Positions 1,963 to 25,705 of a stretch of 64,000 nt of DNA are shown here, piece after piece. The DNA is from Thermoplasmata archaeon (lineage in GTDB: Archaea > Thermoplasmatota > Thermoplasmata > Lutacidiplasmatales > UBA184). Positions within the stretch are counted from its first letter, which is position 1; each line of letters begins with the position of its first letter. Below the pieces are notes generated by a model. That model made no database searches, was not told where the DNA came from, and saw nothing but the letters and a program-made list of their open reading frames with translations. A program made the position numbers and the translations under genes. The stretch is from NCBI GenBank assembly GCA_035656255.1, contig DASRSV010000022.1:16630-80629 (forward strand). The letters run 5' to 3'.

Positions 1963-1965
1963 ACG

Positions 1966-2256: not shown

Positions 2257-2259
2257 GCC

Positions 2260-2400: not shown

Positions 2401-2452
2401 TGCCCCGAGCCCCGCGAGCTCACGATCGTTCTCTTCGAGAACGAGGTGAACC

Positions 2453-2764: not shown

Positions 2765-2787
2765 GCTCGAGGTAGGAGGCGACCACG

Positions 2788-5223: not shown

Positions 5224-6044
5224 GACCGCTCCGCTGGCTCTACGGACCCCCGCCCGACCCGCCGGGGCCGACGCCAGACGAGGTCCGTCGCCACTGGGTC
5301 GCCTACCTCCGTGACCGTGTGGAGAACCACTGGGACAACATGGTCCTCCTTGACGGGATGAGGGGGTCCGGAAAGTCGACTCTCGCCTATCAGCTCGCCA
5401 CGGCCGTCGACCGGACGTTTCGCCCCGGGGACATGGAGTGGCGTATCTGTGGGTCCCCGGAGACCCTGAGCGCCGCCGTCGAACGGGCGACGGTGGGACA
5501 GGTGGTGGTGTTCGACGAGGCGATGATGGGGTTCCGAGGCGTGGACTTCATGAAGCGCCCGTTCCAGGAGCTGGTCTCGATCTTCACGGTGAATCGGTTC
5601 CGAGGCGGCACGTTCCTGGTCCTGTCGCCGTCGATCCACCGGCTGGGAGCCTTCTTCCGAGACGACATCGCGGACGTCTGGATCGCCATTCCGGTCCGGT
5701 CCCGGGGACGGGCGTTCGTCCACCTGAGGACGCCGGGGATCCGTTACGAGTACGGCGAGAAGAAGCCGATCTGGACGAAGGAGTCCCTGTTCAATCCACT
5801 GGAGTGGGGCGAGTCCCGGGGACCCGGTTGGGAGGAGTTCGACCGCATTTCCCGCGGCCGGAAGCTGGAGGTGATCCGGGAGTCGTCGGAACGACTGCGG
5901 AGGACTCGGAGTCCCCGCACTTCTCGCGTACCCGTGGTCTGCCCCCACTGCGGGCACAGCTGGCGAGCGTTACCGGCCCGCCTGTCCCGACAGTGTCCCT
6001 CATGTCTTCGACGATTCAGAATCAGAAATGGAGGACCGGATTAA
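5190..6044 (+). CDS. P-loop NTPase with C-terminal Zn ribbon, putative viral packaging/extrusion ATPase
   Basis: Walker A GMRGSGKST, Walker B VVVFDEA, downstream NRFRGG..LSP element, C-terminal CPHC...CPSC. Start moved to ATG 5190. Confidence 0.8.
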   Translation: MGDELHRRQPIGPLRWLYGPPPDPPGPTPDEVRRHWVAYLRDRVENHWDNMVLLDGMRGSGKSTLAYQLATAVDRTFRPGDMEWRICGSPETLSAAVERATVGQVVVFDEAMMGFRGVDFMKRPFQELVSIFTVNRFRGGTFLVLSPSIHRLGAFFRDDIADVWIAIPVRSRGRAFVHLRTPGIRYEYGEKKPIWTKESLFNPLEWGESRGPGWEEFDRISRGRKLEVIRESSERLRRTRSPRTSRVPVVCPHCGHSWRALPARLSRQCPSCLRRFRIRNGGPD

Positions 6045-8699: not shown

Positions 8700-9206
8700 G
8701 TGATGCCAACCGGCCCTTTGGTCTTCCTCGCTTATCGAATCGACAATGGCGGCGAATGCGATCTCCTCTCGCAGAAGCTGAAAGTGGACCTTCGAGCTCG
8801 TGTTGTCACGGTACACCGCGGGGCGGATCGCTCCCCCGCCGGCGAGTTGATCGAGGACCATGTGTTCCCAGAAATCGAGCGGAGCGACGGCGTGATGATC
8901 CTATGGTCAGAGCCGGCTCGGACGTCTGCATGGGTGAATGCCGAGTACCGCTATGCCCAGAGGATTGGGCGACGAATTTGTCTTGTCCAGTTCCCCGGGA
9001 TTGATCCACCCGACGATTGGCCCCCCGGGCTCAAGCGGGTAAAGCTACGAGGAGTGACTTTCTCCTCGCCCACCCTGGACGGAGGGATTCGATTCTCAAC
9101 GACCGGACCCGCTTACGAAGAAATGCTTGCCGAGTTGGTGGAGTTCGCCCACCGGGCCATGTCGTTCAAGCGAGGGGTAGAACTTCCCCCTTGGCTCAGC
9201 ACCTGA
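8700..9206 (+). CDS. Stand-alone TIR-domain protein
   Basis: VFLAY (cf. VFISY) at the N-terminus, VMILWS, and SAWVNAEYRYA with the conserved TIR catalytic Glu. Confidence 0.8.
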   Translation: MMPTGPLVFLAYRIDNGGECDLLSQKLKVDLRARVVTVHRGADRSPAGELIEDHVFPEIERSDGVMILWSEPARTSAWVNAEYRYAQRIGRRICLVQFPGIDPPDDWPPGLKRVKLRGVTFSSPTLDGGIRFSTTGPAYEEMLAELVEFAHRAMSFKRGVELPPWLST

Positions 9207-9330
9207 ACGATTCGGAGCGTGTCGCGCGCCTTTGCGTACGCTGTAATCGATCCGGGATTCGCGGAATCGGACCGGAGGAGCGCGCGTGAACACAAGTCGG
9301 TTAAGCCAAGGTCCCCCTACAGGCTCCTGA

Positions 9331-10572
9331 ATGCCGAAGAAAGCGGATGCGAAAGGGAGCGCGCTCATAGACTCTCTTCGCCGTTGGGTCACGGCCAAAC
9401 ACGGCACCGCGCCCCTAGAGAGTGCGACTGCGATTCCGGGCGCAAACGGCTCCGATCACCCCTTCATCATCACGTCAGTTCCAATCGCTGACCTGAGGTT
9501 CGAGGACCATCAGTACAACCCGCGCCACCCGAGTCTCGGGCGCGTGAACGAGCTGCGCGCGTCGGTGCACCAACTCGGGCTCCTGTCCCCACTTACCTGC
9601 GCGTACGTCGCAGGCGGAACTGAGGAGGTCGTCCTCATCGATGGACGCCATCGATTCGACGCGCTTCGCGCTCTGTCCGCAGAAGACAAGGAATGGGCGA
9701 AACGAGCGCGTGTGGATCTGAAGGTCTACTACGGCCTGACTAAGAGCGACCTCTTCCAACTCGCCACCTACCTGAACCGAACCCGGAAATCACTCGCCAA
9801 GGGAGAGTACTACAAGGTCGTCGTTCACATTTTCGAGGAGAAGAAGAAGGAGTTGGAGGCGCTGGACGGCAGGCCCCGAACTGAGAAGGAAGTTTTCCAT
9901 GCGGTCAGTTCCCATACCATCTCCGATAGAGATTTCGATCTCTCCATCGGCCGGATCGTCGGAATGGTTGCGTTCGATGAGGAGGAGGATGAAGCATGGT
10001 ATCCCATGGTGGGAACTCGCCAACAGGAACGTATCCGTGGACCACCGTCCCTGAGCGGCTACTGCCCCCTGACCGCCGGGAATCTTGCAGCCTTCCTCGC
10101 CTATCTGTGCAACCCCAAGCCGTACCCCGACAAAGGAGCGCTACGAGACACGGAAATCGGGAATGTCCTACATCTCGGCGCGATATTCCGAAAGCTGATC
10201 ATCGACAAGCCGGTCAAGTCCTATGAGACGGCTACAGGAACCAGCATCGCATGCAAACACTGGTGCCTCGTTGCATTCGGTAGCCTGCTCCACGAGAGCA
10301 GACTGTTCGCTCCGCAGGTACGAGCGGGGAGGTCCCCCTTAGCTGAGGCCGAGCCAGCCTGGGACCGCTTCACGAAGGTGATTGCCGAATACCGCGAAAT
10401 AATGGACGCGCAGGCCGCAATCGTCCGCAGGTACAAGAGCACCGACGAGCCCGGTTTTCTGAAAGACGCCTGGAGCTATCAAACCCAACGCGACCAGGTC
10501 AAGATACCTATGCAGAAGGCGTTCAAAGAACGCGGCATCTCCGACCTTGCCCGGGCGGTTTCCGCCAAATGA
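9331..10572 (+). CDS. ParB/Srx-fold N-terminal domain protein (DGQHR/DndB-like)
   Basis: YNPR, ELRASV..LGLLSPL, VLIDGRHRFDAL and KVYYGL...LATYLNRTRKSL. A TTAAG element lies ~28 nt upstream. Confidence 0.75.
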   Translation: MPKKADAKGSALIDSLRRWVTAKHGTAPLESATAIPGANGSDHPFIITSVPIADLRFEDHQYNPRHPSLGRVNELRASVHQLGLLSPLTCAYVAGGTEEVVLIDGRHRFDALRALSAEDKEWAKRARVDLKVYYGLTKSDLFQLATYLNRTRKSLAKGEYYKVVVHIFEEKKKELEALDGRPRTEKEVFHAVSSHTISDRDFDLSIGRIVGMVAFDEEEDEAWYPMVGTRQQERIRGPPSLSGYCPLTAGNLAAFLAYLCNPKPYPDKGALRDTEIGNVLHLGAIFRKLIIDKPVKSYETATGTSIACKHWCLVAFGSLLHESRLFAPQVRAGRSPLAEAEPAWDRFTKVIAEYREIMDAQAAIVRRYKSTDEPGFLKDAWSYQTQRDQVKIPMQKAFKERGISDLARAVSAK

Positions 10573-11897
10573 CCTCAGATCAAGGCGCACTGCTCGATTG
10601 CCTCGGTGTGCCGCCTAGTCATTCCGATCAAGTTCTTGGAGCATGGGCGCCTTCCAACCCCACCCTTCGAATGCGTTCGATGCTCGAACGTCTCGGGCCC
10701 GAGGCATCGGACCCTAGCTGGCCAGTCGGCCAGTCGCAGGATCGACTTCTGAAGTGGGGACTCTACTCGCCCTTACAGCTCGTCGCCCAGCAATGCGGAG
10801 CCGCCGCGCGTCCCACAATGGAATCCGACTTTCCTTTCTTATTCGGGTTCATGGGGTTGGTTACGCAGGGCCTGATTCATTTTCGGAAGCCCAAACCCCC
10901 CTCGGGAGCTTGGCCCCCCAAGGATCGCAAGGAGGCTCGTCGTTATTCCGCGCTCTATCAATCGGTCTTCCGACTTCGGGAACAACGAGAAGAGCGGGAG
11001 CCGCTGTCTCTCGAGGTCAGGTTGCCGCTCATCACAGATCCCTCACCGCTTCTGCCGCTAAAGAGGTTCGCGCAAGTCGTTGGGCGGGGGGTCGGCGTGG
11101 CAAACGGAGATCGGTTATCGGCACCAACTTCCCCTTCGGCACAGGCCGTCAAATTATTCCGTAACCACGAGGGGACGCCGAGTAATCGGCTCTACCGGCT
11201 TGACTCGGAATACGAGTACATTAGCCCAAAGGACTTGTCGTTAACCTTGCGACGGGACGGGCTGCTCACTCTGGCTTCCAGGTACAACCCGCTGCTCGAT
11301 TTCTACGATGGGGGGTGGCATGTCGTCGATATGGAGGGTGGGCGTCGGGCCATAGATCGACTCTTATCCGCGCGCTTCGGTGGCACTCAGATCGATTCAG
11401 ACCTGCCGAAGTTTCTGCTCAGGCTTGCTTACCACATGGCGACCCATTGGCACGGCGGGATACTCGCGGTGGTTGATGAAAAAGCCGCGGAGAAGCGCCT
11501 TCACCCGGCTCTGCCGGAGTCCAGGGCCATGACACTGCTCATCCGGAAGGCAGCGGGCGCGAAGACGAAGGAATTCCGGATCACCGACGTCGACAAGCCA
11601 GTGGACCCGGACCTGCCCCACAAGCCAAGCTGGGGGCTTGGACGCTTGTTCCTCACCCTCGCGATACAGGATGGCGCCGTGCTCTTTGCGCCGGACGGTC
11701 GGTTCTTGTCTGCCTCTCGATTCGTCGCCGACAACGACCAAAACATAGGCAGTGGTGGAGCGGGTGCCAGGGCCGCCCTCGCCTTGTCCAAGTGTGGGTT
11801 GGCGATCAAGATTAGCGCAGACGGCGCGATCAAGGTATTCGCTCGCGCCGAGAACGGCAGGCTTCTCGTGCCCGCAGCTGGTCTCCGGATTCGATAG
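10569..11897 (+). CDS. Protein with C-terminal DisA_N/diadenylate-cyclase-like domain and uncharacterised N-terminal region
   Basis: HGGILAVV, IQDGAVLF (DGA motif) and GAGARAALALS..LAIKISADGAIKVF matching the DAC fold. The RHR motif is degenerate. ATGA overlap with the ParB-like gene. Confidence 0.7.
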   Translation: MTSDQGALLDCLGVPPSHSDQVLGAWAPSNPTLRMRSMLERLGPEASDPSWPVGQSQDRLLKWGLYSPLQLVAQQCGAAARPTMESDFPFLFGFMGLVTQGLIHFRKPKPPSGAWPPKDRKEARRYSALYQSVFRLREQREEREPLSLEVRLPLITDPSPLLPLKRFAQVVGRGVGVANGDRLSAPTSPSAQAVKLFRNHEGTPSNRLYRLDSEYEYISPKDLSLTLRRDGLLTLASRYNPLLDFYDGGWHVVDMEGGRRAIDRLLSARFGGTQIDSDLPKFLLRLAYHMATHWHGGILAVVDEKAAEKRLHPALPESRAMTLLIRKAAGAKTKEFRITDVDKPVDPDLPHKPSWGLGRLFLTLAIQDGAVLFAPDGRFLSASRFVADNDQNIGSGGAGARAALALSKCGLAIKISADGAIKVFARAENGRLLVPAAGLRIR

Positions 11898-11900
11898 GCT

Positions 11901-13640
11901 CTAGGACGCGGCGAAGCTGCGGCAAATGTCATGTGGCTCGTCGACGATCCGCGCGTCGAACCCCTCGACAACCGGCCCGAATGTCGCGCCGTAAAGACGG
12001 GGCTGAAGGTACGCAACGATTCTCCGATAGTGCTTTCCGATGACGCCGAGAACGGTCGCGGTCCGGATTCGGAGGAACTCTGTGTGGCGTGGGTGAATGG
12101 CGTTGGTCAACGGGAAGTCATATCCCATGATCGCGGGGTTGCCCTCGTGGTCCCAATGGACGGGGCCGTAAAGCCCGCTCAACGTGATCCGATCGAAGTC
12201 GTCGCCTTCCACCCACCCTTCGGATTCCAGATGAGAGAGGATCCTGCGGTGGACTTTGCTTCGGGCGTACGGTCGGGAGCGCGAGCAGGGTAGCAAGAGC
12301 AATGCGGCCTCGGCGCATGGCTCAAACCCCTTGAGCGGAAACGCGTACTCCTTCGGTACAACAGATCCCTTGGTGGCCGCGGGGACTTGAGCAGAGGCGT
12401 GCGGCGCCGCTAGCCCGAGTGCAACTCTGGTCCGCCACCACGAGAGGTTGTGGAGAGCCAGAGCGGCCCAAACATCGGATCGATTGACTCGCCTCTCACC
12501 AATCATGAGGGGACGATAGGGAGGTCGCGTCAGGAGCTCGACGACGTTCTCCCTCCCAACTCCCATCAGGAGCGTGCATCCCGGGCAAGAACATCCAGAG
12601 TCTTCGCTCGGGTCGAAGTCGCGATAGTTGCCGATCCGATGATCAAAGACACGCTTTCGGAACGCCGCCTGAACATAGGTCGAGTTGTCGAACGATAGGG
12701 GCCGACAATCTGGGTGTCGCCTGACTAGTTCCCCAACCACGGCCTCTCCAACACCGAAGAGATGCAGAGGGGTGTTGTCGGCGGTTGTCCGCGCCATCCA
12801 GGAGAGTACTGCCTCGCAGTTCTGGAGGATGCGTTGCGGCTCCCTTGACAGAGGAACCTGACTCCCGAGTGCAATCCCGAGAGCCGGCGAGGAAAACGCG
12901 CCGACGGGTAGGGCGTCTTCAAGCGATCGGGCGCACCACGTGACTTCCTCCGCGGACCTGCCGTGGACCGCCAAGTACGCAGTCGGGGTACTGTTCGATC
13001 CGATCACCGCACTGGCCAGCCATGCCGAGTTACGCACGCTGGCAATGATGTGGCGCCGCGCCTGTCTCGGGCTGGCCCCGCGCGGGATAGGTGAGTCGAG
13101 GCTTGCGATTCGCGACGGACCAAACTTGAGTTGCATTTCGAGGACACTCTCTGGGGAGAGATCCATGCCCCACGGGGAAAGGTCGATTTTGTCCCCGTGA
13201 AGAATTTGAAACCCACCACTATCCAGGAAGACATCTCCGGACGGCCCCAGAAGTTCCTCGAGTTCCCGTTGGATTCGCACGCCACCGTACCACGGCGCGA
13301 ACCACGCCTCCCACGCTCGGTCGCTGAGTTCGTAGGCCGTGAAGTGCAGTGCTTGGACCATGAGGCGAGGCGGCCCATCGACTCCCCTCAGCCCGGCTTT
13401 GATGGCTTTCCAGACGCCGCCGTTCCTCGTGAGTCCGGGTGGCCCTGTGAGCAGGTGGACAACGGGGAAGAAGGATACCGGGCCCCCGCCTTCCTGCATG
13501 GGGGGGGATGAGAGGGCCACCGTTTGAGCGCTTCTGTCTCGCGGCGGGGCGAGCGAGGGTTTCCCCGGGCCGCTAGATTGGGCGACTGTCCCGTGGGAGT
13601 GCGCTCTGTCAAACTCAATCGGCCGGGACTGGGACCTCAT
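11901..13640 (-). CDS. tRNA-guanine transglycosylase (TGT/DpdA)-like enzyme fused to a C-terminal DUF5591/ArcS-like domain
   Basis: VFLDSGGFQ, HLFGVG, SFDNSTY, Zn motif CSCPGC...HNL, C-terminal LLLLPCSRSRPYARSKVH. Start is probably ATG 13640 or 13499 rather than 13898. Confidence 0.8.
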   Translation of the reverse strand: MRSQSRPIEFDRAHSHGTVAQSSGPGKPSLAPPRDRSAQTVALSSPPMQEGGGPVSFFPVVHLLTGPPGLTRNGGVWKAIKAGLRGVDGPPRLMVQALHFTAYELSDRAWEAWFAPWYGGVRIQRELEELLGPSGDVFLDSGGFQILHGDKIDLSPWGMDLSPESVLEMQLKFGPSRIASLDSPIPRGASPRQARRHIIASVRNSAWLASAVIGSNSTPTAYLAVHGRSAEEVTWCARSLEDALPVGAFSSPALGIALGSQVPLSREPQRILQNCEAVLSWMARTTADNTPLHLFGVGEAVVGELVRRHPDCRPLSFDNSTYVQAAFRKRVFDHRIGNYRDFDPSEDSGCSCPGCTLLMGVGRENVVELLTRPPYRPLMIGERRVNRSDVWAALALHNLSWWRTRVALGLAAPHASAQVPAATKGSVVPKEYAFPLKGFEPCAEAALLLLPCSRSRPYARSKVHRRILSHLESEGWVEGDDFDRITLSGLYGPVHWDHEGNPAIMGYDFPLTNAIHPRHTEFLRIRTATVLGVIGKHYRRIVAYLQPRLYGATFGPVVEGFDARIVDEPHDICRSFAAS

Positions 13641-13711
13641 AGTCAGCCTTTCGAGCACGACCCTCCGGCCTCGGGGCGGGCCTGGCGCACGATTTGACAG
13701 GGGGAGTTTGC

Positions 13712-13942
13712 TCACGGAGTTGTGGCGGACCGCCAACCCCACGAGTAGGCCAGCCGCTGGAGAAACCACAGGGTCGAGAACCCGGGAACGAGCCGAAGCG
13801 GGATTCGATTGGACTGGAATCCTCGAAGCTCCGCCCAGTAATCCCGTAAGAGGGCCCCAGGCGTCAGGGGTCCCGGAATCATGGAGGCGGAGTGCCACTC
13901 TGCAGCCTGCCCGTCCGTCCGGTCGACCTGAAGATATGTCAT
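13712..13942 (-). CDS. 76-aa hypothetical protein coupled to the glycosyltransferase
   Basis: ATG overlaps the GT stop (ATGA). MTYLQVDRTDG...FSTLWFLQRLAYSWGWRSATTP. Confidence 0.45.
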   Translation of the reverse strand: MTYLQVDRTDGQAAEWHSASMIPGPLTPGALLRDYWAELRGFQSNRIPLRLVPGFSTLWFLQRLAYSWGWRSATTP

Positions 13943-14655
13943 GACGGTTCTACCGGGCCGAAGATTCGGTCCGTCGCCTGTCGACAGCCCCGTCCGTAGT
14001 TGCGGAAGGTCCGCAAGAAGTCCAACACGCCGGGCCGGAATTCGTGCCGCACGAGCGCGTCGGGGACGTACTTGAACGTCCATCCCGCGCGGCGAAGCCG
14101 TATGCTCAGGGCAACGTCCTCCCCGCCGGGAGTCGGGATCGAGCCGTCGAACCCCCCCACGGCGAGCGCCTCACGACGAGAGTAGGCGCAGTTGGCGGTC
14201 ACGAGGTAGAGCATCGATGGCGGAGGCTCAAGGATTCGGTAGTACGCGTAGTACCGAGAGATCCAATCGATATCGGTGGGGAGGACCCGCCCCCCGGCGC
14301 CGACGATTCGGCGGGAGGTGTCGATGGGGCTGATCAAGGACCCCAACCAGTCGGGATCCACGATGCAATCGTCGTCCGCGAAGGCTACAATGTCCGCCGA
14401 GGTGGACTCCATACCTAAGTTGCGCCCGTGGCCAGGACCTGTGCCGTCGGTCTGCGAGACGATCACCGGATCGAATGAGTGGGGGGCGGCACCCCATTCT
14501 CGGAGAAACTCCGGAGTGGAGTCCCGCGATCGGCCATCCACGACGACTACCTCGTCCGGGCGGAGGCCTCGGAGCCGGTCGACAGACCCGAGGAGTCGTT
14601 CGAGCCGGATTTGTCGATCCCTAGTGGGAATCACTAGCGCGACGCTCCGCGTCAT
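13939..14655 (-). CDS. Family 2 (GT-A) glycosyltransferase
   Basis: VALVIPTRDR, VVVVDGRSRD, RNLG, FADDDC (DxD), GGFD, EDVAL. ATG 14655 overlaps the epimerase stop. Confidence 0.9.
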   Translation of the reverse strand: MTRSVALVIPTRDRQIRLERLLGSVDRLRGLRPDEVVVVDGRSRDSTPEFLREWGAAPHSFDPVIVSQTDGTGPGHGRNLGMESTSADIVAFADDDCIVDPDWLGSLISPIDTSRRIVGAGGRVLPTDIDWISRYYAYYRILEPPPSMLYLVTANCAYSRREALAVGGFDGSIPTPGGEDVALSIRLRRAGWTFKYVPDALVRHEFRPGVLDFLRTFRNYGRGCRQATDRIFGPVEPS

Positions 14656-15578
14656 CCCGATGGGTGCCCCCGCATCCACAGGATCGTTCGCTCGAGGCCC
14701 TCCTCCAAATCGACGCGGGGCTGGTACCCGAACGCCTCCTTCGCCTTCGAGATGTCCAGCCAAGTCCGGAGCCCCTCCTCCCCCCGTCGATACTTCCACG
14801 AGGGGTCGAACTCGACCCTTCCCGACCCGACCTTCCGCACCACCGAATTGCCAAGGTCGAGAATCGAAAGTTCCCTGCCGCTCGCGATGTTGAACGTCCC
14901 CGAGGCACCCGCGTCAAGCGCCATTCGAACGCCGTCTACGAAGTTCGTGACGAAGTTCAGGTCACGCGTGGGGTGGCCCCCAAGGACAGGTTCGGCGGGG
15001 AATAGGAGGGGCTCGTTGCGAAGTGCGCGGCGGACGAATTTGGCGACGACCTGGGCCTTAGGGTCGCTGCGAGGACCGTACCCCATGCCGCTCCGGACGA
15101 TCAGGGCCTTGCTGCCAAAGGCGCTCCGGACCAGCACCTCTGCCGCGGCCTTCGACGCCGCGTACGGGGACTGGGGGTTCGGTAAGACGGTTTCCGGGGT
15201 GGGATAGGCAACCGCCGGACCGTACACGGTTTCGGATGATGCATAGAGGAATGTCCTGAGGTCACCTCCGAGTTGGAGCGCGGCTTGGATCAGGTTGATC
15301 GTGGCGACGACGTTGTCCCGGTAGGTCCCGATCGGATCTTCGAACGAAGGCTCGACGCGCGCTTGCGCCGCGAGATGAACTATCACCTCGGGGGAGATCC
15401 GGCGGACCAGGCTGCTGAGCCCGTCGGGGTTGCAGAGGTCTGCCAGATGGTAGACGACGCCGTCGACGCGTTCGAGGGGCGGACGCCGATCCACCCCGTG
15501 GAGCTTATCGCGCCCTGAGCGGGCCTCGAGGAACGAAGTGCCGATGAAGCCCGAACAACCCGTGAGCAGAATCTTCAA
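14652..15578 (-). CDS. NAD-dependent NDP-sugar epimerase/dehydratase (extended SDR)
   Basis: ILLTGCSGFIG, HLAAQARV, ASSETVYG, PYAASK, YGPR, RDLNFV. Confidence 0.92.
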   Translation of the reverse strand: MKILLTGCSGFIGTSFLEARSGRDKLHGVDRRPPLERVDGVVYHLADLCNPDGLSSLVRRISPEVIVHLAAQARVEPSFEDPIGTYRDNVVATINLIQAALQLGGDLRTFLYASSETVYGPAVAYPTPETVLPNPQSPYAASKAAAEVLVRSAFGSKALIVRSGMGYGPRSDPKAQVVAKFVRRALRNEPLLFPAEPVLGGHPTRDLNFVTNFVDGVRMALDAGASGTFNIASGRELSILDLGNSVVRKVGSGRVEFDPSWKYRRGEEGLRTWLDISKAKEAFGYQPRVDLEEGLERTILWMRGHPSG

Positions 15579-15622
15579 CGCCGCAGCCCCTCCCAGTCCC
15601 TCGGGAGGGTGTTCCCCAATTT

Positions 15623-16270
15623 CTACCCCGCTGAGGCCTCGGCGCTCTCATCGGCCATCTGTAGGGTGCCCCCCGAAGGGTGGACCGATTGGTCCCGCCT
15701 TAGCACCGAGCGAACGGCTCCCAGTTTGAGGTTCATTTTCTGGGAGATCATTCGAAGGCTCTCGCCTCCGGCTCGGCGGGCTTGGACCTCCCTCGCAATA
15801 CGCTCCGGGATTCTCCGAGGTGCCCCAAACTTCTTGCCCAGCGCGCGAGCCCGCGCCACGCCCGCTTGGGTTCGTTCGAGGATGAGCTCGCGCTCGAATT
15901 CTGCCAGGGCTGCGAGCATGTTCCGCTGCAGACGACCGCTTGGGGTGGAGGTGTCGATTCCCTGGTCGATGACAATCACGCGGGCTCCTGCCGCCTCAGC
16001 GTCGTCCCAGAACCGCAGGATCATACCCAACGAGCGGCCTAGCCGGTCCATCTTGGAAACTACGATCGTATCGAACTCGCCCGAGGCGAGCCGCTCCCGA
16101 AGTCGATCAAGCTCCGGTCGGTTGTCCCGGATGCCTGAGATTCCGTCGTCCCGAAAGACCGCGACATCCGGCCAGCCTCTCGCCTGGCAGTAGGCGGTGA
16201 GCTGACCGACTTGGGCCTCCGTCGACTGTTCCTTGGTCGAGACGCGAGCGTAGATCGCGACCCGAGTCAT
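15623..16270 (-). CDS. Serine recombinase (resolvase/invertase family) with C-terminal HTH
   Basis: AIYARVSTKEQ, SG..DNRPEL, SKMDRLGRS, LAALAEFERELILERTQAG. ATG 16270 overlaps the MTase stop. Confidence 0.93.
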   Translation of the reverse strand: MTRVAIYARVSTKEQSTEAQVGQLTAYCQARGWPDVAVFRDDGISGIRDNRPELDRLRERLASGEFDTIVVSKMDRLGRSLGMILRFWDDAEAAGARVIVIDQGIDTSTPSGRLQRNMLAALAEFERELILERTQAGVARARALGKKFGAPRRIPERIAREVQARRAGGESLRMISQKMNLKLGAVRSVLRRDQSVHPSGGTLQMADESAEASAG

Positions 16271-17643
16271 GCTGGGGCCTCTTCCCGCGTTGCAACGTCG
16301 GCGACCCCGGCGGCCGAGCGGTGGCGAGAGAGAATCACGTAGTCGGGGTTGAGTTCGATACCGACGGATCTGCGGCCTAGTCGGCGCGCGACCGCGAGGA
16401 CGGTACCGCTTCCCGCGAAGGGGTCGAGAACGAGGCAAGGGACGGTGCCGGTGGTCTCACAGGAGCAGCGTTTGCGGAACCCCAAGTCAACCCGCCGGTA
16501 GCTCCCATCGTGCCACCCGGGGGCGTTGGCGACGGGGGCGCGGCCCGACACCAGCGGAGCCTCGAGTTTCTGCGCGTGGCCGATGGCGCCCCCAACGGCC
16601 CGGACTTCCCTCGACCAGGGAGTCCCGCACTTGGCGCACGCCCCGCGCTCGGAGGTTCCCGCCAGGATGCAGAGCTCGGGGAGCTTCTCCGGGAACGTGG
16701 CGAAGTGGGCCGCCCGGTAGGGCTGGGTCGGGATCCACCAGACCGACCGGAGGTTGCGACCTGAGGGGGTCGTGTTTCGCAACATTGGGAATCGCCGAAA
16801 GTCCCCCTCGGGATGCTTCGAGTGGGAGCCGCGATTATCGGTTGGGTTTGGTAGATGATGTCGGAGCCTTTGGAGCGTGCTCTCCTGAAGGGGCTCGCGG
16901 ACCGCGTACGTGTCGTAGAAGTAGCGTCTCGACTTCGTGAGAAGGAAGACCGAGTCGTGGGCCCGGGTGGGCCGATCCTTGACCGCCTCCGGCATCGGAT
17001 TCGGCTTCGCCCAAACACAATCGGACCTAAGCCACCAGCCCCGGCGTTGCAGCTCGAAAGCGACTCGCCAAGGAATCCCCACGAGATCCTTCGGCTTCAG
17101 TCCGGGCGCCCGCTTGTCGATCCGACCGGCCTGTTCGGCCCCCGTGTGGTTCCGGTTGGATAGCGTCGAGGCCTTCCATCGCTTCTCGCCGGTGAGTCCA
17201 GATGGGTGGGTGGCATAGGTATCGCCGAGGTTCAGCCAGAGCGTCCCGTCGGGCCGCAAGACCCGGCGGACTTCGTCGAAGACGCCCGCGAGATGCTCCA
17301 CGAATCCTTCGGGGGTGGGCTCCAAGCCGAGCTGGCCGAGCCACCCTCCGCACTTCCGGCAGGTTGAACCGCCCTGCGAAGCGTCGTAAGGGTCGCTCTC
17401 ACTTGGCCGAGCGGGCCCACCGTTTGTGCCATCCGCATCGCGCTGGCGCTGCGGCTGCGCCAGCTCCCATTCGTGGTTACAAGCCGCCAGTCCGCCCCAT
17501 CTGATCGGTCGGAGCCCGTAGTCTCGAAGTCCCCAGTACGGGGGGGACGTGACAATGCAGTGGATCGAGTCGTGCGGGAGGCAGCGCAGGATGTCCAGAA
17601 CGTCCCCCTCGAGGATGACCGGAGTCGGGTCATCCGGGATCAC
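16267..17643 (-). CDS. Site-specific DNA methyltransferase (N4-C/N6-A, beta-type motif order), copy 2
   Basis: VTSPPYWGLRDY N-terminal and DPFAGSGT C-terminal. GGAGG before GTG 17643, which overlaps the upstream stop. Confidence 0.92.
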   Translation of the reverse strand: MIPDDPTPVILEGDVLDILRCLPHDSIHCIVTSPPYWGLRDYGLRPIRWGGLAACNHEWELAQPQRQRDADGTNGGPARPSESDPYDASQGGSTCRKCGGWLGQLGLEPTPEGFVEHLAGVFDEVRRVLRPDGTLWLNLGDTYATHPSGLTGEKRWKASTLSNRNHTGAEQAGRIDKRAPGLKPKDLVGIPWRVAFELQRRGWWLRSDCVWAKPNPMPEAVKDRPTRAHDSVFLLTKSRRYFYDTYAVREPLQESTLQRLRHHLPNPTDNRGSHSKHPEGDFRRFPMLRNTTPSGRNLRSVWWIPTQPYRAAHFATFPEKLPELCILAGTSERGACAKCGTPWSREVRAVGGAIGHAQKLEAPLVSGRAPVANAPGWHDGSYRRVDLGFRKRCSCETTGTVPCLVLDPFAGSGTVLAVARRLGRRSVGIELNPDYVILSRHRSAAGVADVATREEAPA

Positions 17644-19016
17644 GCGGTTGCCTCCGCCGTATGACGGGGGATGGCAGAGGCGACGGGGAAACTCCGGAGG
17701 CGAGCCATCTCGACGTATTCCGGGTTCAGGTCGATACCGATCGACCTCCGCCCCAGCCGCCGGGCCGCCGCCAATACCGTCCCGCTCCCGGCGAAGGGAT
17801 CGAGGACGAGACACGGGACAACCCGGTCGCCCGGGCAGGCGCACCGCTTTCGGAAACCGAGGTCGATCCTTCGGTAGCTCCCGTCAAGATGACCGGGAGC
17901 CGTAATCCCCTGCACCCGACCGCGCGTGAGTGACTTGTCTGGGTACCAATCGTGCCCGATCGAACCGCCTTCGACTCGCACCTCGCGAGCCCAGGGTCTA
18001 CCGCACGAAGCGCAGGATCCGCGCTCGGAGGTTCCGGCTCGAATGCAGATGTCGGGAAGCGCCTCAGGGAACGTCGCGAAGTGAGCACCGGAGTATCCCC
18101 GGGTCGCAATCCACCAGACGGACCGGAGGTTCCGACCGCGCCCGGGCGGGAGCTCCGTGGCGACAGCCCGGGCGAGGCTCGAATTGGATCGGACGCCCGA
18201 GCCCGGGGTCGCTAGTTTACGGGCGGCCCGACCGCCCTTGGGGTGGGCTGCGCCGGAGACCGGCTCTCGGACGGCCTCGCCGTCGTAGAAGTACCGCCGC
18301 GATTTCGTGAGGATGAAGACGTACTCGTGCGAGCGGGTCGGACGATCCACGACCGATTCCGGCATCGGGTTTGGCTTCGCCCATACGCAATCGGAACGGA
18401 GCCACCAGCCCCTCCGTTGGAGCTCGAACGCGACCCTCCAAGGGATTCCTGCTAGGTCCTTCGGCTTGAGCTGGCCGTGGCGGGAAGCGCTTCTCCGCGC
18501 CCCACCCCTGCTGCGGATCTGGGAAAGGTCCCACCCAGGGGAGAACGCCTCGGCCGACGATCGGCATACCGGGCTGTCCGTGTGGAAGGTGTCGCCAAGA
18601 TTGAGCCAGAGCGTCCCGTCACGACGGAGAACTCGCCGGACCTCATCGAAGACCGCGCCGAGGTGGTCGACGTAGAGCTCGGGGGTTGGTTCCAGGCCCA
18701 GCTGTCCAAGCCAGCCGCCACATCGGACACACCCCTCCGTTGATCGGAGCTCGATGTTGGCCCCTGCATGGGCCGCCTGAACCGATCCGGGGTTCCGGAC
18801 GTCGTCGGGGGAGCGTTTTCGTCGCGGCGGGAGTTTTGCCCAACTGTGCCGGCACGACGAATCGCCGCCCCAGAGGACGGGGGGAAGACCGTAATCCCGG
18901 AGGCCCCAGTACGGAGGCGAGGTGACCACGCATTGGATTGAATCGTCGGGGAGTCGAGCGAGAACCTTCCCTACGTCGCCCTCGAGGATGGTCGGGGTAA
19001 GGTCCGTGGGGATCAC
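17640..19016 (-). CDS. Site-specific DNA methyltransferase (N4-C/N6-A, beta-type motif order), copy 1
   Basis: VTSPPYWGLRDY and DPFAGSGT. Paralog of the adjacent MTase. Confidence 0.92.
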   Translation of the reverse strand: MIPTDLTPTILEGDVGKVLARLPDDSIQCVVTSPPYWGLRDYGLPPVLWGGDSSCRHSWAKLPPRRKRSPDDVRNPGSVQAAHAGANIELRSTEGCVRCGGWLGQLGLEPTPELYVDHLGAVFDEVRRVLRRDGTLWLNLGDTFHTDSPVCRSSAEAFSPGWDLSQIRSRGGARRSASRHGQLKPKDLAGIPWRVAFELQRRGWWLRSDCVWAKPNPMPESVVDRPTRSHEYVFILTKSRRYFYDGEAVREPVSGAAHPKGGRAARKLATPGSGVRSNSSLARAVATELPPGRGRNLRSVWWIATRGYSGAHFATFPEALPDICIRAGTSERGSCASCGRPWAREVRVEGGSIGHDWYPDKSLTRGRVQGITAPGHLDGSYRRIDLGFRKRCACPGDRVVPCLVLDPFAGSGTVLAAARRLGRRSIGIDLNPEYVEMARLRSFPVASAIPRHTAEATA

Positions 19017-20183: not shown

Positions 20184-20303
20184 CCGACCACCCCCGGCGA
20201 CGTTTCAAGGACCGCCCGCATGGCCCTGGTGGCGGCGGGAGTCTGGGCCTGTTCAGCCCGATTCCGAGCCGGTTTTCGGCTGGGTTCTATAAGAAAGTGG
20301 TTA

Positions 20304-20330
20304 TGGGCCCGGACGGATTCGAACCGACGA
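20304..20330 (-). repeat. Degenerate duplicate of a tRNA 3' end (att-like site)
   Basis: tgggcccggacggattcgaaccgacga matches tgggccgggacggattcgaaccgtcga at 22538 (25/27), covering the T-arm and the acceptor 3' strand only. Confidence 0.8.
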
Positions 20331-23439: not shown

Positions 23440-25311
23440 CTAGCGAGAGGAACCGACCTGAGCCGTCGGCGCGCCCGGAGTCGCGGACCCACCGGCACGA
23501 TGGCGCACGGTAACCGCGCGCCCGCGCCGGAGTTCGGTCATCAGTCGACCCGGAAGTTCCGCCTCGCCCACGGCGAACGGGGCGTTGTCGCGGACGAGCG
23601 TGACGGCGTCGCCCACGCGGATCGCCGGGTCCGCCTCCGCTACGCCCCCCACGAACAGGTCGCCCCGGAGCTCGAAACCGGGGGCGACGGTCACCGCGAG
23701 CGCCCCGGCGGAACCTGCCCGGCGGGCTCCCGGGACGGTGAGCTGGAACAGTCCGCGCTCTTCCCGCCAGGTGGCGAGATCGACGCCCCCTCCGTCCGAG
23801 AGGCGTTGGAACCACGGCCGCCCGTGCAGCCGAACCGGCGGAGCGAACAGCGACTCGGCGAACGCGCGTCCGAACTGGAAGGCAGCGACCTCACGGAGCT
23901 CCTCGAGAACCGTCGAGATCGGGCCCGGGCGTTCGGTCGAGTTCAGGGCGGGGTCGGCCCCGAGGTCCCGACGCAGGCGGTCGATCGACCCCGGGGCGGT
24001 CGGGCGGTCGCCTTCGGACGTCCATGCGGCAGCGAACTCGGTCGGGATCCCATCCGTGATGAAGCCGTACTCTTGGGCATCCAGGTGGACGACGACCCGG
24101 TCGTACCGACCGCGGTCGAGGAGGTGCCTCAGGAGGCCGACGACACGCTCGCGCTCTTCCTGAGCCCAGGTGTGGGTGACGGGAATGTCGTAGTGGCGCG
24201 CGGGGTAGACGTCCTCGAGCTCGCGCGGGACGAGCCCGAGAGGGGAAGTGACGGATACGACGTGGATGCGATGGGGAGCAGCGAGCCCCTCCCACGCCCG
24301 TGCAATAGCGCGGTGCGTTCGCGAGTTCCGGTACGGCTTCGTCCGGGAGCAGGGGACGACGAGGAGCACCTTCTTCGAAGCCGGCGGGACGTACCGCCTC
24401 CGCAGTCGGTCGATGAAGCGGGCGACCTCAGGCCGTCGATGCGACTCGGCGAACACGTAGGAGACGGGGGCGGAAGCGGTGACCGGGGTTCGTTCTTCGA
24501 GGAGGTCCGCGAGCTCTCGGTCGGCGTAGCGGAGCAGTTCGGCGAGGGCTGGCTCGGCGACCTGACGGGCTTCGGCGAGGTCGCGCAGGCGATGGTGGCT
24601 TGCCGCCGCGCGGACGAAGCCGATCTCCTGGGACATCCGGTCGACGGCGCACCGGATCCGCCCGCTCGAGCCCCCGGAGGAGCACGTCGGACACACCGCG
24701 TCGGAGAACGTCGAGGCTTCGGCGGAGATGGGACCGAGCTGGGCGTCGAGGTGGAACGCACGGAGCGCCCACGCCACGGCTTCGTGGTTCGTTACGAGGT
24801 CGACTCCGAGGTAGGCGAGCAGGGCGAGCCGATGGGGCAGCGCGACGCGGGGGATCCAGAGGAGCGGATGGGAGCCCAGACGCCGGCGGATGTCGCCGAC
24901 TGCCAGGACGAACGGCCGCCCCTCGTCGTAGAGCGCGGCCGCGTTCGCGAGGACGACCGCGTCGGGCCGGCCGGCCCGAGCATTCTCCCAGCCCGCATCG
25001 GGAAGCGGCCAATGGATCGATACGACCCCCTCGCCGACCTTCGCGGCCTCCGTCGGAGGCGCGCCGACCTCCGGCGCCGGGATCGGAAAGTCGAGCACGA
25101 ACCGGGAGCGGCCGTCGGTGAGCACGTTCTCGCGATGAAGCATCGCCCATCCGGCGGGCGAACCCGGCTCGATACCCAGCCCGGCGGAGTCGAACGGCAC
25201 TCCCTCGACCCCGCGGACCGGGAGCAGCCCCGGTGTCGCGATGCGGAACGGACCGAGGTCGGCCCGGCTTGGGGTCGAGAGTCCTTCCAGCCGCTCGACC
25301 TCCCGGGGCAT
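23440..25311 (-). CDS. arcS: Archaeosine synthase subunit alpha (TGT-paralog domain + DUF5591 + PUA)
   Basis: LVVPCSRTKPYRNSRTH, VTSPLGLVPRELE..YPA.HYDIPVT, C-terminal PUA (DPAIRVGDAV..GEAEL). Start moved to 25311. Confidence 0.88.
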   Translation of the reverse strand: MPREVERLEGLSTPSRADLGPFRIATPGLLPVRGVEGVPFDSAGLGIEPGSPAGWAMLHRENVLTDGRSRFVLDFPIPAPEVGAPPTEAAKVGEGVVSIHWPLPDAGWENARAGRPDAVVLANAAALYDEGRPFVLAVGDIRRRLGSHPLLWIPRVALPHRLALLAYLGVDLVTNHEAVAWALRAFHLDAQLGPISAEASTFSDAVCPTCSSGGSSGRIRCAVDRMSQEIGFVRAAASHHRLRDLAEARQVAEPALAELLRYADRELADLLEERTPVTASAPVSYVFAESHRRPEVARFIDRLRRRYVPPASKKVLLVVPCSRTKPYRNSRTHRAIARAWEGLAAPHRIHVVSVTSPLGLVPRELEDVYPARHYDIPVTHTWAQEERERVVGLLRHLLDRGRYDRVVVHLDAQEYGFITDGIPTEFAAAWTSEGDRPTAPGSIDRLRRDLGADPALNSTERPGPISTVLEELREVAAFQFGRAFAESLFAPPVRLHGRPWFQRLSDGGGVDLATWREERGLFQLTVPGARRAGSAGALAVTVAPGFELRGDLFVGGVAEADPAIRVGDAVTLVRDNAPFAVGEAELPGRLMTELRRGRAVTVRHRAGGSATPGAPTAQVGSSR

Positions 25312-25357
25312 GGGCCGAGGAGCAGGGGAACCGACCGTAAGCGGTTCGGCCGGCGGG

Positions 25358-25705
25358 TTACGTCTTCTCCGCGGCTTTTCGCCCCCGTCCTCGCGACGGG
25401 GCACCGGCGGGGAAGAACGCCTCCCAGGCGGTCACGAGCTGCTCGCGCCGCTCGGCGCCGGCTTCGGATCGGCCCCGCTTGCCGAACATCGGGTCGTGGG
25501 TATCCCGGACCGAGCGGAGGAACTCCCCCGGGTTCTCGCTCGCTCGCTCGAAACCGTACAGGATGAGCTGGCGCAGGAAGCTCGAACGGCCCCGCCAACC
25601 GATGCGCCGTCGGACGAGGGGGTTGAGGTGGCGCTTCGCCATGCGCCACACGTCGTTGGTGGTCCGGTAGTCGCGCGCGGAGAGTCCGATCATGACCTGC
25701 GGCAT
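25358..25705 (-). CDS. Hypothetical basic protein (115 aa)
   Basis: ATG 25705 in the ubiA-arcS gap. Protein-like composition, unlike the upstream part of the track ORF. Confidence 0.5.
   Translation of the reverse strand: MPQVMIGLSARDYRTTNDVWRMAKRHLNPLVRRRIGWRGRSSFLRQLILYGFERASENPGEFLRSVRDTHDPMFGKRGRSEAGAERREQLVTAWEAFFPAGAPSRGRGRKAAEKT

What the first reader, a model, noticed from the sequence alone, without database searches (positions are those of the whole stretch)
9331..15578. Candidate undescribed nucleic-acid base-modification system: TGT-DUF5591 fusion + GT2 + sugar epimerase facing a ParB/DGRHR + DAC-like pair
Seen: two convergent blocks meeting 3 nt apart (11897/11901). One is epimerase>GT2>76-aa ORF>TGT-fusion and the other is ParB-like>DAC-like, inside a mobile element next to two DNA MTases. 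Established: Dpd systems put 7-deazaguanines into DNA with a TGT paralog (DpdA), a DndB/DGQHR-family partner (DpdB) and DpdC. Inference: this is a Dpd-like system with extra parts, namely a sugar-transfer module and a nucleotide-signalling-like domain. It could place a glycosylated deazaguanine in DNA (anti-restriction or self/non-self marking) or in tRNA. No queC/D/E or folE is present, so the base would come from the host archaeosine pathway (arcS is at 23.4 kb). I do not know a named system with this gene set.
Basis: partly seen in the sequence, partly recalled or inferred. Interest (0 to 1): 0.9.

Follow-up and report, generated by a model that had tools for sequence, protein, structure and literature searches.

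The report
Archaeal deazaguanine DNA-marking gene trio
A mobile island in a Thermoplasmata archaeon carries a conserved three-gene set that most likely swaps guanine in DNA for a modified 7-deazaguanine base; the neighbouring sugar genes are an unrelated cassette, not part of it.

Summary

The conserved unit is a trio: the fusion, the ParB-like protein and the 442-aa DAC-fold protein. Among 23 non-redundant relatives, the ParB-like gene sits next to the fusion in 21 and the DAC-fold gene in 18.

The SDR-GT2-orf76 cassette is a 2-kb indel. It is absent from the closest relative (84% nt identity) and from all 23 relatives. In a same-genus genome it occurs without the trio. It assorts independently.

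The fusion keeps every TGT catalytic and zinc residue and the ArcS core motif, with K changed to R. Its two halves match the DpdA and ArcS2 proteins of Sulfolobus virus STSV2; the homologous DpdA2 + ArcS2 pair of Vibrio phage nt-1 makes dG+ in DNA. Divergent relatives lie in operons with DpdJ-like helicases and DpdK-like PLD nucleases, and one lies next to a queuosine-salvage gene.

Best reading: a Dpd-like module that only modifies DNA, with no restriction genes, carried on a tRNA-integrated element and fed by host preQ0. It is not a Dpd member by HMM. I found no published description. It is a new variant of a known kind, and nothing about its chemistry has been tested.

The parts
9331..10572 (+). 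ParB-fold protein (413 aa): N-terminal ParB/Srx domain with invariant NPR and DGRHR motifs, plus a helical C-terminal domain. Predicted NTPase partner of the transglycosylase, analogous to DpdB.
   Evidence: PHROG ParB 3.5e-10. Profile against Noc 0.0045. AF2 pLDDT 92.8. Foldseek hits pNOB8 ParB, ParB-CTP, Noc, PadC, Srx and Atu1540, the same set reported for DpdB in PMC10164549. Invariant residues. Next to the fusion in 21/23 loci.
10569..11897 (+). 442-aa protein. The N-terminal ~250 aa have no recognisable fold. The C-terminal ~180 aa have a diadenylate-cyclase (DisA_N) fold with the DGA and S-x-D-G motifs kept, but GTRHR replaced by GGAGARAA. Conserved third subunit of unknown role.
   Evidence: AF2 pLDDT 90.7. 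Top 20 Foldseek PDB hits are all DAC domains, E about 5e-4. Profile against 2fb5 and DisA gives 0.012 to 0.1. Motif census. Present in 18/23 loci. No Pfam, NCBIfam or PADLOC hit.
11901..13499 (-). TGT-DUF5591 fusion (532 aa from the likely start; the ORF stays open to 13898). Predicted bifunctional DNA guanine/7-deazaguanine transglycosylase plus ArcS2-type nitrile-modifying domain. No PUA or C2 domain.
   Evidence: Pfam TGT and DUF5591. 132+ homologues. hhalign to STSV2 DpdA 94.4% and to STSV2 ArcS2 91.9%.
12420..13478 (-). TGT catalytic domain of the fusion. Invariant DSGGFQ (D93), LDSP (D135), (F/Y)DNSTY (D271) and the zinc site CxCxxC...H350.
   Evidence: These align to D95, D130, D249 and CSCPVC of P. 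horikoshii ArcTGT 1iq8.
11970..12347 (-). DUF5591 (ArcS C1 core) domain with the motif PCSRSRPYARSKVH, that is PC-X3-RPY-X2-S-X2-H. The canonical motif has K where this has R.
   Evidence: The canonical motif is quoted in PMC10516641. The host ArcS has PCSRTKPY.
13673..15690 (.). 2.0-kb indel relative to the closest related island. It carries SDR (14652-15578), GT2 (13939-14655) and orf76 (13712-13942), all on the minus strand and ATGA-coupled. It is an independent cassette, not part of the trio, and is probably a lipid-linked or surface glycan module.
   Evidence: blastn breakpoints. Absent from 23 relatives. Present without the trio in G013 and G026. NCBIfam best hits are MftF, EpsD, AglG and AglJ-type GT2, all below their cut-offs.
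8700..9206 (+). Small TIR-like gene directly upstream of the ParB-like gene and on the same strand. Possible defence neighbour; a link to the trio is not shown.
   Evidence: Pfam TIR_2 at 26 bits, below the cut-off of 28. Conserved in L001, where an IS element splits it. TIR or SIR2 genes also lie near the fusion in L085 and L086.
15623..19016 (-). Island backbone: serine resolvase (15623-16438) and two paralogous N6_N4 DNA methyltransferases (16267-17844 and 17640-19016).
   Evidence: Pfam. Shared with L001 and with G013.
23440..25404 (-). Host canonical ArcS, outside the island. DUF5591 at 148 bits, PCSRTKPY motif, C-terminal extension. Its N-terminal domain has no Pfam TGT match.

Best explanation
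Window 9331-13499 encodes a three-protein DNA base-modification module of the Dpd kind, carried by a tRNA-integrated mobile island. The steps below are inferred from homology unless marked otherwise.

1. The host queuosine/archaeosine pathway supplies preQ0. QueC is present in the genome.
2. The TGT domain of the 532-aa fusion exchanges guanine in double-stranded DNA for preQ0. It uses the conserved Asp nucleophile and a zinc-stabilised fold.
3. The ParB-fold DGRHR protein acts as the nucleotide-hydrolysing partner on DNA, as DpdB does for DpdA.
4. The fused DUF5591 (ArcS core) domain converts the 7-cyano group in place, through its invariant Cys, to an amidine-type product. The product would be 2'-deoxyarchaeosine (dG+) or a related adduct, as shown for the Vibrio phage nt-1 DpdA2 + ArcS2 pair.
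5. The 442-aa DAC-fold protein is a conserved accessory subunit. It probably binds a nucleotide. Its role is unknown, and it is dispensable in at least one lineage.

No helicase or nuclease partner is present in this genome. Here the module would therefore mark or protect DNA, acting with the two orphan methyltransferases as anti-restriction or epigenetic cargo, rather than restrict. In related lineages the same writer is wired to DpdJ-like or DruE-like helicases plus PLD nucleases. The SDR-GT2-orf76 cassette next door is separate cargo.
For: Recurrence:
- The fusion sits next to the ParB-like gene in 21/23 non-redundant relatives and next to the 442-aa gene in 18/23. The arrangement may be convergent, divergent or co-directional.
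- Sequence identities to the window proteins co-vary: rho 0.89 for the ParB-like protein and 0.93 for the 442-aa protein.

Catalytic integrity:
- D93, D135, D271 and CxCxxC..H are invariant in 41 sequences and align to the ArcTGT catalytic residues.
- The ArcS core motif is kept, with an invariant Cys.

Functional precedent:
- By hhalign the two halves match STSV2 DpdA (94.4%) and STSV2 ArcS2 (91.9%).
- Phage nt-1 DpdA2 + ArcS2 gave dG+ in plasmid DNA (PMC10516641).

ParB-fold partner: Foldseek returns the same structural neighbours as published for DpdB, which is an ATPase required for preQ0 insertion.

Defence linkage:
- L010 and L027 carry the operon HxlR, helicase (PADLOC DpdJ 2.8e-47), PLD (DpdK 2.4e-12), ParA, p144 (a 144-aa ORF with no family hit), fusion; in L010 the ParB-like and DAC-fold genes follow, while the L027 contig ends just after the fusion.
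- L014 has a DpdJ-like helicase at 4e-47. L020 has a DruE/DpdJ-like helicase, a PLD and a Q_salvage gene. Bacterial L100 has the fusion plus a 1320-aa helicase.

Not the tRNA enzymes:
- The host has its own ArcTGT (207 bits) and ArcS.
- The fusion lacks a PUA domain and scores 22.8 against the ArcS cut-off of 440.

Accessory and mobile:
- The fusion is in 3 of 401 genomes of the class.
- The island lies at a tRNA.
Against: - No biochemical or nucleoside data exist. The target (DNA or RNA) and the product are inferred only.
- The PADLOC DpdA, DpdB and DpdC models and the NCBIfam models do not hit any of the three proteins. Homology to Dpd proteins exists only at superfamily or fold level.
- The TGT domain is about as far from the host ArcTGT (hhalign 87.8%) as from viral DpdA (94.4%).
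- The ArcS motif has R where canonical ArcS has K. Canonical ArcS needs the radical-SAM partner RaSEA to finish G+, and I did not look for it.
- No viral or phage relative was found.
- The role of the DAC-fold protein is unexplained.
- ParB-fold proteins also serve in plasmid partition. A ParA-like gene sits in the L010 operon.
Confidence: 0.6

Rival explanations
1. The SDR-GT2-orf76 sugar module works with the trio, so the island writes a glycosylated 7-deazaguanine into DNA or tRNA.
For: The cassette is co-directional with the fusion gene, ending 70-210 nt upstream of it, and is tightly coupled internally. L010 has a GT4 at 26.9 bits on Pfam GT4-conflict, against a cut-off of 26, and an SDR a few kb downstream of its operon.
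Against: - The cassette is a 2-kb indel, absent from the 84%-identical island L001.
- It is absent within 5 kb of the fusion in 23/23 relatives.
- It occurs without the trio in G013, beside an E2-ThiF-TIR module, and in G026.
- Its GC content is higher than that of the trio.
- The nearest GT2 families are lipid-linked or exopolysaccharide transferases.
Confidence: 0.06
2. The fusion acts on tRNA or another RNA, as an element-borne alternative ArcTGT/ArcS. The ParB-like and DAC-fold genes form an unrelated partition or maintenance pair of the mobile element.
For: TGT+DUF5591 is the ArcS-type architecture. The best PDB sequence match is ArcTGT. ParB-fold proteins commonly serve in partition, and a ParA-like gene is in the L010 operon.
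Against: - There is no PUA or C2 RNA-binding domain.
- The host already has ArcTGT and ArcS.
- The ParB-like gene follows the fusion into chromosomal, non-mobile contexts such as L003, and its sequence divergence tracks that of the fusion.
- Relatives are wired to DpdJ/DpdK-like DNA helicase and nuclease pairs.
Confidence: 0.12
3. The trio is an effector rather than a marker. The TGT domain excises or swaps bases in invading DNA and so damages it. The DAC-fold protein makes or senses a nucleotide signal that couples to neighbouring TIR or SIR2 NADases.
For: TIR or SIR2 genes lie next to the module in the window, L001, L085 and L086. The DAC fold keeps its DGA and S-x-D-G motifs.
Against: - The RHR motif needed for c-di-AMP synthesis is lost in most members.
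- TIR adjacency is seen in only a few loci and fits ordinary clustering of defence genes in islands.
- In G013 the TIR belongs to a different E2-E1 module.
- The DUF5591 tailoring domain makes more sense for a stable mark.
Confidence: 0.1
4. The genes are decaying cargo with no current function in this genome.
For: No restriction partner is present. The DpdJ-like helicase query finds nothing in the 92%-complete genome. The related cassette in G013 is frameshifted.
Against: All three ORFs are intact. The invariant catalytic residues are kept, and they are 90-94% identical in protein to a relative whose DNA is only 84% identical, which points to purifying selection.
Confidence: 0.04

Closest known systems
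Viral DpdA + ArcS2 pairs: Vibrio phage nt-1 DpdA2 + ArcS2, and Sulfolobus virus STSV2 STSV2_15/16 (Cui, Hutinet et al. 2023, PMC10516641)
   Same: A TGT-superfamily DNA transglycosylase combined with a stand-alone DUF5591 (ArcS core). For nt-1 the pair was shown to give dG+ in DNA. The two halves of the window fusion match STSV2_15 and STSV2_16 by hhalign at 94.4% and 91.9%. Both depend on preQ0.
   Different: Here the two activities are fused in one polypeptide. The motif has K changed to R. There are ParB-fold and DAC-fold partners that the viral pairs lack. The setting is a cellular or integrated element, and no viral relative was found.
Bacterial Dpd system, dpdA-K (Thiaville 2016; Gedara et al. 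2023, PMC10164549)
   Same: A TGT paralogue works with a ParB-fold NTPase partner to insert preQ0 into DNA, followed by a tailoring step. Related loci carry DpdJ-like helicases and DpdK-like PLD nucleases.
   Different: The PADLOC and NCBIfam DpdA, DpdB and DpdC models do not hit. Tailoring would be done by a fused ArcS-type domain, not by DpdC, so the expected product is an amidine rather than ADG. The motif is DGRHR rather than DGQQR. There are no dpdD-K genes in this genome. The DAC-fold subunit is extra.
Canonical archaeosine synthase ArcS (TgtA2), NCBIfam NF040592
   Same: The same domain order, a TGT-like N-terminal domain followed by the DUF5591 C1 core, with a near-identical core motif.
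   Different: The window protein keeps the TGT catalytic Asp residues and matches Pfam TGT. The N-terminal domain of the host ArcS does not match Pfam TGT or the fusion profile, and I saw no DSGG- or FDSASY-type motif in its sequence (read by eye). The window protein lacks the C2 and PUA domains and scores 22.8 against the cut-off of 440.
BRIGADE systems of haloarchaea (YprA-helicase preprint, PMC12458937)
   Same: Predicted archaeal Dpd-like systems that combine a 7-deazaguanine gene cluster with YprA-family helicases and PLD nucleases. L010, L014 and L020 resemble this layout.
   Different: BRIGADE is defined by two YprA helicases and was reported only in halophiles. The held text and supplements do not mention TGT, DUF5591 or ParB. 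The window has no helicase or nuclease.
Diadenylate cyclases DisA, CdaA and CdaM (DAC / DisA_N fold)
   Same: The fold of the C-terminal ~180 aa of the 442-aa protein. The DGA motif and the Ser/acidic motif are kept.
   Different: There is no Pfam DisA_N hit. RHR is replaced in most members. The N-terminal 250 aa are novel. The genomic context is DNA modification.

Membership tests
Dpd system (DpdA) | TGT-superfamily fold with the catalytic Asp residues and the zinc site | tested here: met
   Pfam TGT 30.4 bits against a cut-off of 26.3. D93, D135, D271 and CxCxxC..H are invariant.
Dpd system (DpdA) | Match to a curated DpdA model | tested here: not met
   PADLOC scans of the window and L010 fusions gave no hit. 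PDLC02809 (DpdA) gave no match in the whole genome, but it also rang in none of the control genomes, so that run lacks a positive control. NCBIfam lists only ArcS, TgtA and tgt_general, all far below their cut-offs.
Dpd system (DpdB) | ParB-fold N-terminal domain with a DGQ(Q/H)R-type NTPase motif, plus a helical C-terminal domain | tested here: met
   The AF2 model and Foldseek give ParB, Noc, PadC, Srx and Atu1540, the neighbours reported for DpdB. The motif here is the invariant DGRHR.
Dpd system (DpdB) | Match to a curated DpdB model | tested here: not met
   PADLOC gave no hit. PDLC02812 (DpdB) gave no match in the genome, although it did ring in a control genome.
Dpd system | DpdC tailoring enzyme and the DpdD-K restriction genes in the cluster | tested here: not met
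   No PADLOC hit for any window protein. No DpdJ-like helicase in the genome. DpdJ-like and DpdK-like genes occur only in related loci L010, L014 and L027.
Dpd system | dPreQ0 or dADG present in DNA and dependent on the genes | not testable with these tools
   This needs LC-MS/MS of nucleosides.
Viral DpdA + ArcS2 module | A DNA-type TGT together with the DUF5591 core carrying PC-X3-KPY-X2-S-X2-H | tested here: inconclusive
   Both halves match by hhalign. The motif is present, but with R for K in at least 90% of family members. They are fused rather than separate, and no viral relative was found.
Canonical ArcS (tRNA archaeosine synthase) | C1 + C2 + PUA domains and a score above the NF040592 cut-off | tested here: not met
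   22.8 bits against a cut-off of 440. Only about 30 residues follow the DUF5591 domain. The host has a separate canonical ArcS.
Diadenylate cyclase (DAC, PF02457) | DisA_N fold | tested here: met
   The top 20 Foldseek PDB hits are all DAC domains with probability 1.00.
Diadenylate cyclase (DAC, PF02457) | Catalytic DGA and RHR motifs, and a match to the Pfam model | tested here: not met
   DGA is invariant, but GTRHR is GGAGARAA in the window and is variable across the family. No Pfam hit even at E<=10.
BRIGADE | Two YprA-family helicases plus a PLD or PD-(D/E)xK nuclease, with a 7-deazaguanine cluster | tested here: not met
   No helicase or nuclease lies in the island, and the L010 helicase query finds no match in the genome.

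The most novel reading that the evidence does not exclude
One polypeptide both inserts preQ0 into DNA and converts it in place to an archaeosine-type amidine (dG+ or an amino-acid adduct). A ParB-like NTPase loads it onto DNA. A new DAC-fold enzyme assists, either by completing the chemistry in place of the radical-SAM partner RaSEA or by coupling the modification state of DNA to a nucleotide signal. This would be the first cellular archaeal 7-deazaguanine DNA-marking system, with a subunit type not seen in any DNA-modification pathway.
Probability: 0.15. Interest if true: 0.85.

Novelty: new variant of a known kind. Interest (0 to 1): 0.62.

Why it matters
7-Deazaguanine in DNA is known from bacterial Dpd islands and from phages. 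For archaeal cells there are only predictions. This family offers a compact three-gene writer that can be tested directly in E. coli.

It fuses the insertion and tailoring steps. It also brings a ParB-fold partner and a diadenylate-cyclase-fold partner that no described system has.

Related lineages plug the same writer into DpdJ/DpdK-like or DruE-like helicase-nuclease pairs. The family could therefore show how modification modules are exchanged between defence systems and mobile elements.

The result also corrects the original claim. The glycosyltransferase module is unrelated cargo, so the idea of a glycosylated deazaguanine should not drive experiments.

Tried and rejected
- Single-sequence Pfam, NCBIfam, PADLOC and PDB searches of the ParB-like and 442-aa proteins gave nothing useful. 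Family profiles and AF2 models were needed.
- Scans of viral contigs and the phage collection with the fusion found nothing. Foldseek of the 442-aa model against viral structures found nothing.
- I asked whether orf76 is a frameshifted C-terminus of GT2. Three-frame reading did not settle it. orf76 is conserved as a separate ORF in G013 (55%) and G026 (27%), so I treat it as a gene.
- I looked for a DpdJ-like helicase in the genome and found none.
- I considered a GT link through the GT4 and SDR downstream of the L010 operon. I rejected it because it occurs once, and the SDR and neighbouring ORFs lie on the opposite strand.
- I did not build a TGT-superfamily tree. At about 20-25% identity it would not resolve DpdA against ArcTGT, so I used hhalign comparisons instead.
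- The BRIGADE preprint and its held supplements do not mention TGT, DUF5591 or ParB.
- I did not use the search of protein representatives, because its hits carry no context or names.

Full report
**Observation**

The window is a 0.70-GC archaeal contig. It comes from a 2.3-Mb MAG that is 92% complete, and its closest relatives are Thermoplasmata. A lower-GC stretch (0.60-0.66) runs from about 6 to 22.5 kb. It ends at tRNA-Val (22536-22611), and a 28-nt copy of the tRNA 3' part sits at 20303-20330.

All ORFs in the finding exist as described.
- The 413-aa gene 9331-10572 (+) overlaps the 442-aa gene 10569-11897 (+) by 4 nt.
- The 442-aa gene stops 3 nt from the stop of the convergent ORF 11901-13898 (-).
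- Upstream of that ORF, on the minus strand, lie SDR 14652-15578, GT2 13939-14655 and orf76 13712-13942. They are linked by ATGA overlaps.
- Flanking genes are a serine resolvase, two N6_N4 methyltransferases and a weak TIR hit.

**Domain identities**

The long minus-strand ORF matches Pfam TGT (30.4 bits) and DUF5591 (31 bits), both just above their cut-offs. Family alignments place the real start near 13499, which gives 532 aa.

The GT2 and SDR calls are solid.

The 413-aa protein is only marginal on Pfam ParB_N (E=0.09). Other evidence is stronger.
- It hits a PHROG ParB family at 3.5e-10.
- Its family profile hits Noc at 0.0045.
- An AF2 model (pLDDT 92.8) retrieves pNOB8 ParB, CTP-bound ParB, Noc, PadC, sulfiredoxin and Atu1540.
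- That is the same set of neighbours published for DpdB (PMC10164549).
- NPR and DGRHR are invariant.

The 442-aa protein has no family hit at all. Its AF2 model (pLDDT 90.7) gives DisA, CdaA or CdaM as all 20 top PDB matches. The family profile weakly hits the same DAC proteins. DGA and S-x-D-G are invariant. GTRHR is G[AST]G[ANT]RAA in most members and GGAGARAA here. The N-terminal 250 residues match nothing.

**What is conserved**

The fusion has more than 130 homologues. About 60 are archaeal proteins of ~530 aa. A more distant, largely bacterial set has 600-740 aa.

I fetched about 100 loci in all, from species-representative genomes, metagenome contigs, exact-sequence look-ups of encoding contigs and relatives' genomes. 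In the clade at least 35% identical to the window protein there are 23 non-redundant loci.
- The ParB-like gene lies next to the fusion in 21. One exception is a short contig. The other is L020.
- The 442-aa gene lies next to it in 18.
- Orientation varies: convergent, divergent or co-directional. Adjacency does not.
- Identities to the window proteins co-vary, with rho 0.89 and 0.93.
- L003, with 10-kb flanks, has the fusion and the ParB-like gene but no 442-aa gene.
- The ParB-like and 442-aa families are small (57 and 54 clusters). They come from contigs of the same lengths as the fusion hits.

**The sugar module is separate cargo**

The closest relative island is L001/L005, from a Thermoplasmata MAG.
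- It aligns at 84% nt identity to window 8794-13672 and at 82% to window 15691-17809. Only about 38 bp lie between those two blocks in L001.
- Window 13673-15690 is therefore a 2-kb indel carrying exactly SDR-GT2-orf76.
- In L001 the resolvase abuts the fusion gene.

None of the 23 relatives has a GT2 or SDR within 5 kb.

The converse case also exists. A same-genus genome (G013, L093) has MTase, resolvase, SDR, a frameshifted GT2 and orf76 at 69% nt identity to window 13700-17357. These are followed by Prok-E2_E, ThiF and a TIR protein instead of the trio. A more distant genome (G026) has SDR-GT2-orf76 on a 4.5-kb contig that shows none of the trio genes.

So each module occurs without the other. 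The slot beside the resolvase holds exchangeable cargo. The nearest GT2 families are lipid-linked, exopolysaccharide and S-layer N-glycosylation transferases, all below their cut-offs. My inference is that the cassette modifies surface glycans, as prophage gtr clusters do.

**Evidence that the trio acts on DNA with a 7-deazaguanine**

1. The TGT domain is catalytically complete. DSGGFQ (D93), LDSP (D135), (F/Y)DNSTY (D271) and CxCxxC...H350 are invariant in 41 sequences. They align to D95, D130, D249 and CSCPVC of P. horikoshii ArcTGT.
2. The DUF5591 part keeps the ArcS core motif as PC-X3-RPY-X2-S-X2-H, with an invariant Cys. The host ArcS at 23440-25404 has the canonical PCSRTKPY and a long C-terminal extension. 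Its N-terminal domain matches neither Pfam TGT nor the fusion profile.
3. The host has its own ArcTGT (207 bits) and QueC. preQ0 is therefore available, and the island enzyme is a third paralogue.
4. By hhalign the family profile matches Sulfolobus virus STSV2 DpdA over 223 columns (94.4%) and STSV2 ArcS2 over 116 columns (91.9%). It matches the host ArcTGT at 87.8%. In Vibrio phage nt-1, DpdA2 alone gave dPreQ0 in plasmid DNA, and DpdA2 plus ArcS2 gave dG+ (PMC10516641).
5. DpdB, the ParB-fold partner of DpdA, is an ATPase required for preQ0 insertion (PMC10164549).
6. Divergent relatives sit in defence-type operons.
   - L010 reads HxlR, a 1315-aa helicase (PADLOC DpdJ 2.8e-47), PLD (DpdK 2.4e-12), ParA-like, a 144-aa ORF, the fusion, the ParB-like gene and the DAC-fold gene.
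   - L027 shares the first five plus the fusion. L014, L033, L039 and L032 show a helicase and/or PLD just upstream.
   - L020 (fusion 47% identical) has a 1615-aa DruE/DpdJ-like helicase and a DrmC-like PLD on one side, and a Q_salvage (PF10343) gene on the other.
   - A bacterial fusion (L100) is followed by a 1320-aa DEAD helicase on a mobile element. Another (L099) sits beside an N6_N4 MTase and MutH.
7. The fusion is found in 3 of 401 sampled genomes of the class. The related island in L001 ends inside a tRNA-Arg.

**Mechanism proposed (inferred)**

- Host preQ0 is exchanged for guanine in DNA by the TGT domain.
- The ParB-like NTPase assists on DNA.
- The fused ArcS-type domain converts the nitrile to an amidine-type product (dG+ or an adduct).
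- The DAC-fold protein is a nucleotide-binding accessory subunit of unknown role.
- The genome has no DpdJ-like helicase, and the island has no nuclease. Here the module would therefore mark or protect DNA alongside the two orphan MTases.

**Limits**

- There is no chemical evidence.
- The curated DpdA, DpdB and DpdC models do not hit these proteins. DpdA and DpdB models do exist in PADLOC (PDLC02809 and PDLC02812), and neither matches anywhere in the genome.
- This is therefore not a Dpd member by sequence. It is a system that probably works like one.
- The K-to-R change in the motif, the possible need for a RaSEA-type partner and the function of the DAC-fold protein all remain open.

**Known or new**

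- "DUF5591" occurs in only two held papers, which are versions of the same study.
- Searches for DpdA/ArcS fusions and for archaeal DpdA/DpdB returned no description of this trio.
- The closest published archaeal class is BRIGADE, in haloarchaea. It is defined by YprA helicases and PLD nucleases with a 7-deazaguanine cluster. Its held text does not mention these proteins.
- Earlier unchecked notes of this scan describe other TGT/DUF5591 modules. I partly confirmed the bacterial fusion plus helicase layout myself.

This is a new variant of a known kind, and interest is moderate to high.

Noticed in passing
L093 (G013:C1) 1003-3746: In a same-genus genome, the slot that holds the TGT trio here is filled by Prok-E2_E + ThiF (E1) + a TIR protein. 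This sits next to the same MTase-resolvase-SDR-GT2-orf76 backbone, so the site is an exchangeable defence-cargo slot.
   Followed up: partly
L010 3778-14614; L027 1540-8772: L010 carries an eight-gene co-directional operon: HxlR, DpdJ-like helicase (1315 aa), DpdK-like PLD, ParA-like ATPase, a 144-aa ORF, the TGT-DUF5591 fusion, the ParB-like gene and a 546-aa DAC-fold gene. It looks like a complete Dpd-like restriction-modification candidate in Thermoplasmatales. L027 shares the genes from the helicase to the fusion, where its contig ends.
   Followed up: partly
L020 4241-13408: A TGT-DUF5591 fusion without ParB-like or DAC-fold partners. It is flanked by a 1615-aa DruE/DpdJ-like helicase and a DrmC-like PLD on one side, and by a Q_salvage (PF10343) gene on the other.
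   Followed up: partly
window 20303-20330 and 22537-22564: A 28-nt copy (93%) of the 3' part of tRNA-Val brackets a 2.2-kb piece holding a 661-aa Omp28-like surface protein gene. Homology to the L001 island ends at 20325, and in L001 it ends inside a tRNA-Arg. This fits successive tRNA-targeted integrations.
   Followed up: partly
window 16267-19016: The two tandem N6_N4 methyltransferase genes share blocks of 74-78% nt identity, offset by about 1370 nt. No endonuclease gene was recognised beside them.
   Followed up: no
L001 14443-16085: In the related island, the TIR gene upstream of the ParB-like gene is split by a DDE_3 transposase insertion.
   Followed up: no
window 5154-6044: An ORF with weak hits to the STAND NTPase family nSTAND3 (below cut-off) and to a DnaA-like replication initiator PHROG. 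It may be the replication or ATPase gene of the integrated element. ORFs at 1-5 kb have no family hits.
   Followed up: no
L093 4414-5258: The GT2 gene of the related cassette in G013 is broken into three frames, so it is probably a pseudogene. The SDR and orf76 beside it are intact.
   Followed up: no
L085 9575-12648; L086 12829-16901: SIR2+Sel1 and TIR genes lie next to the trio in L085. TIR-EAD2-VMAP, AAA_5 and TIR genes lie next to a 704-aa bacterial fusion in Dictyobacter vulcani. NADase-type defence genes recur around these writers.
   Followed up: no
window 25819-26799: A UbiA-family prenyltransferase gene lies directly upstream of the host arcS on the same strand.
   Followed up: no
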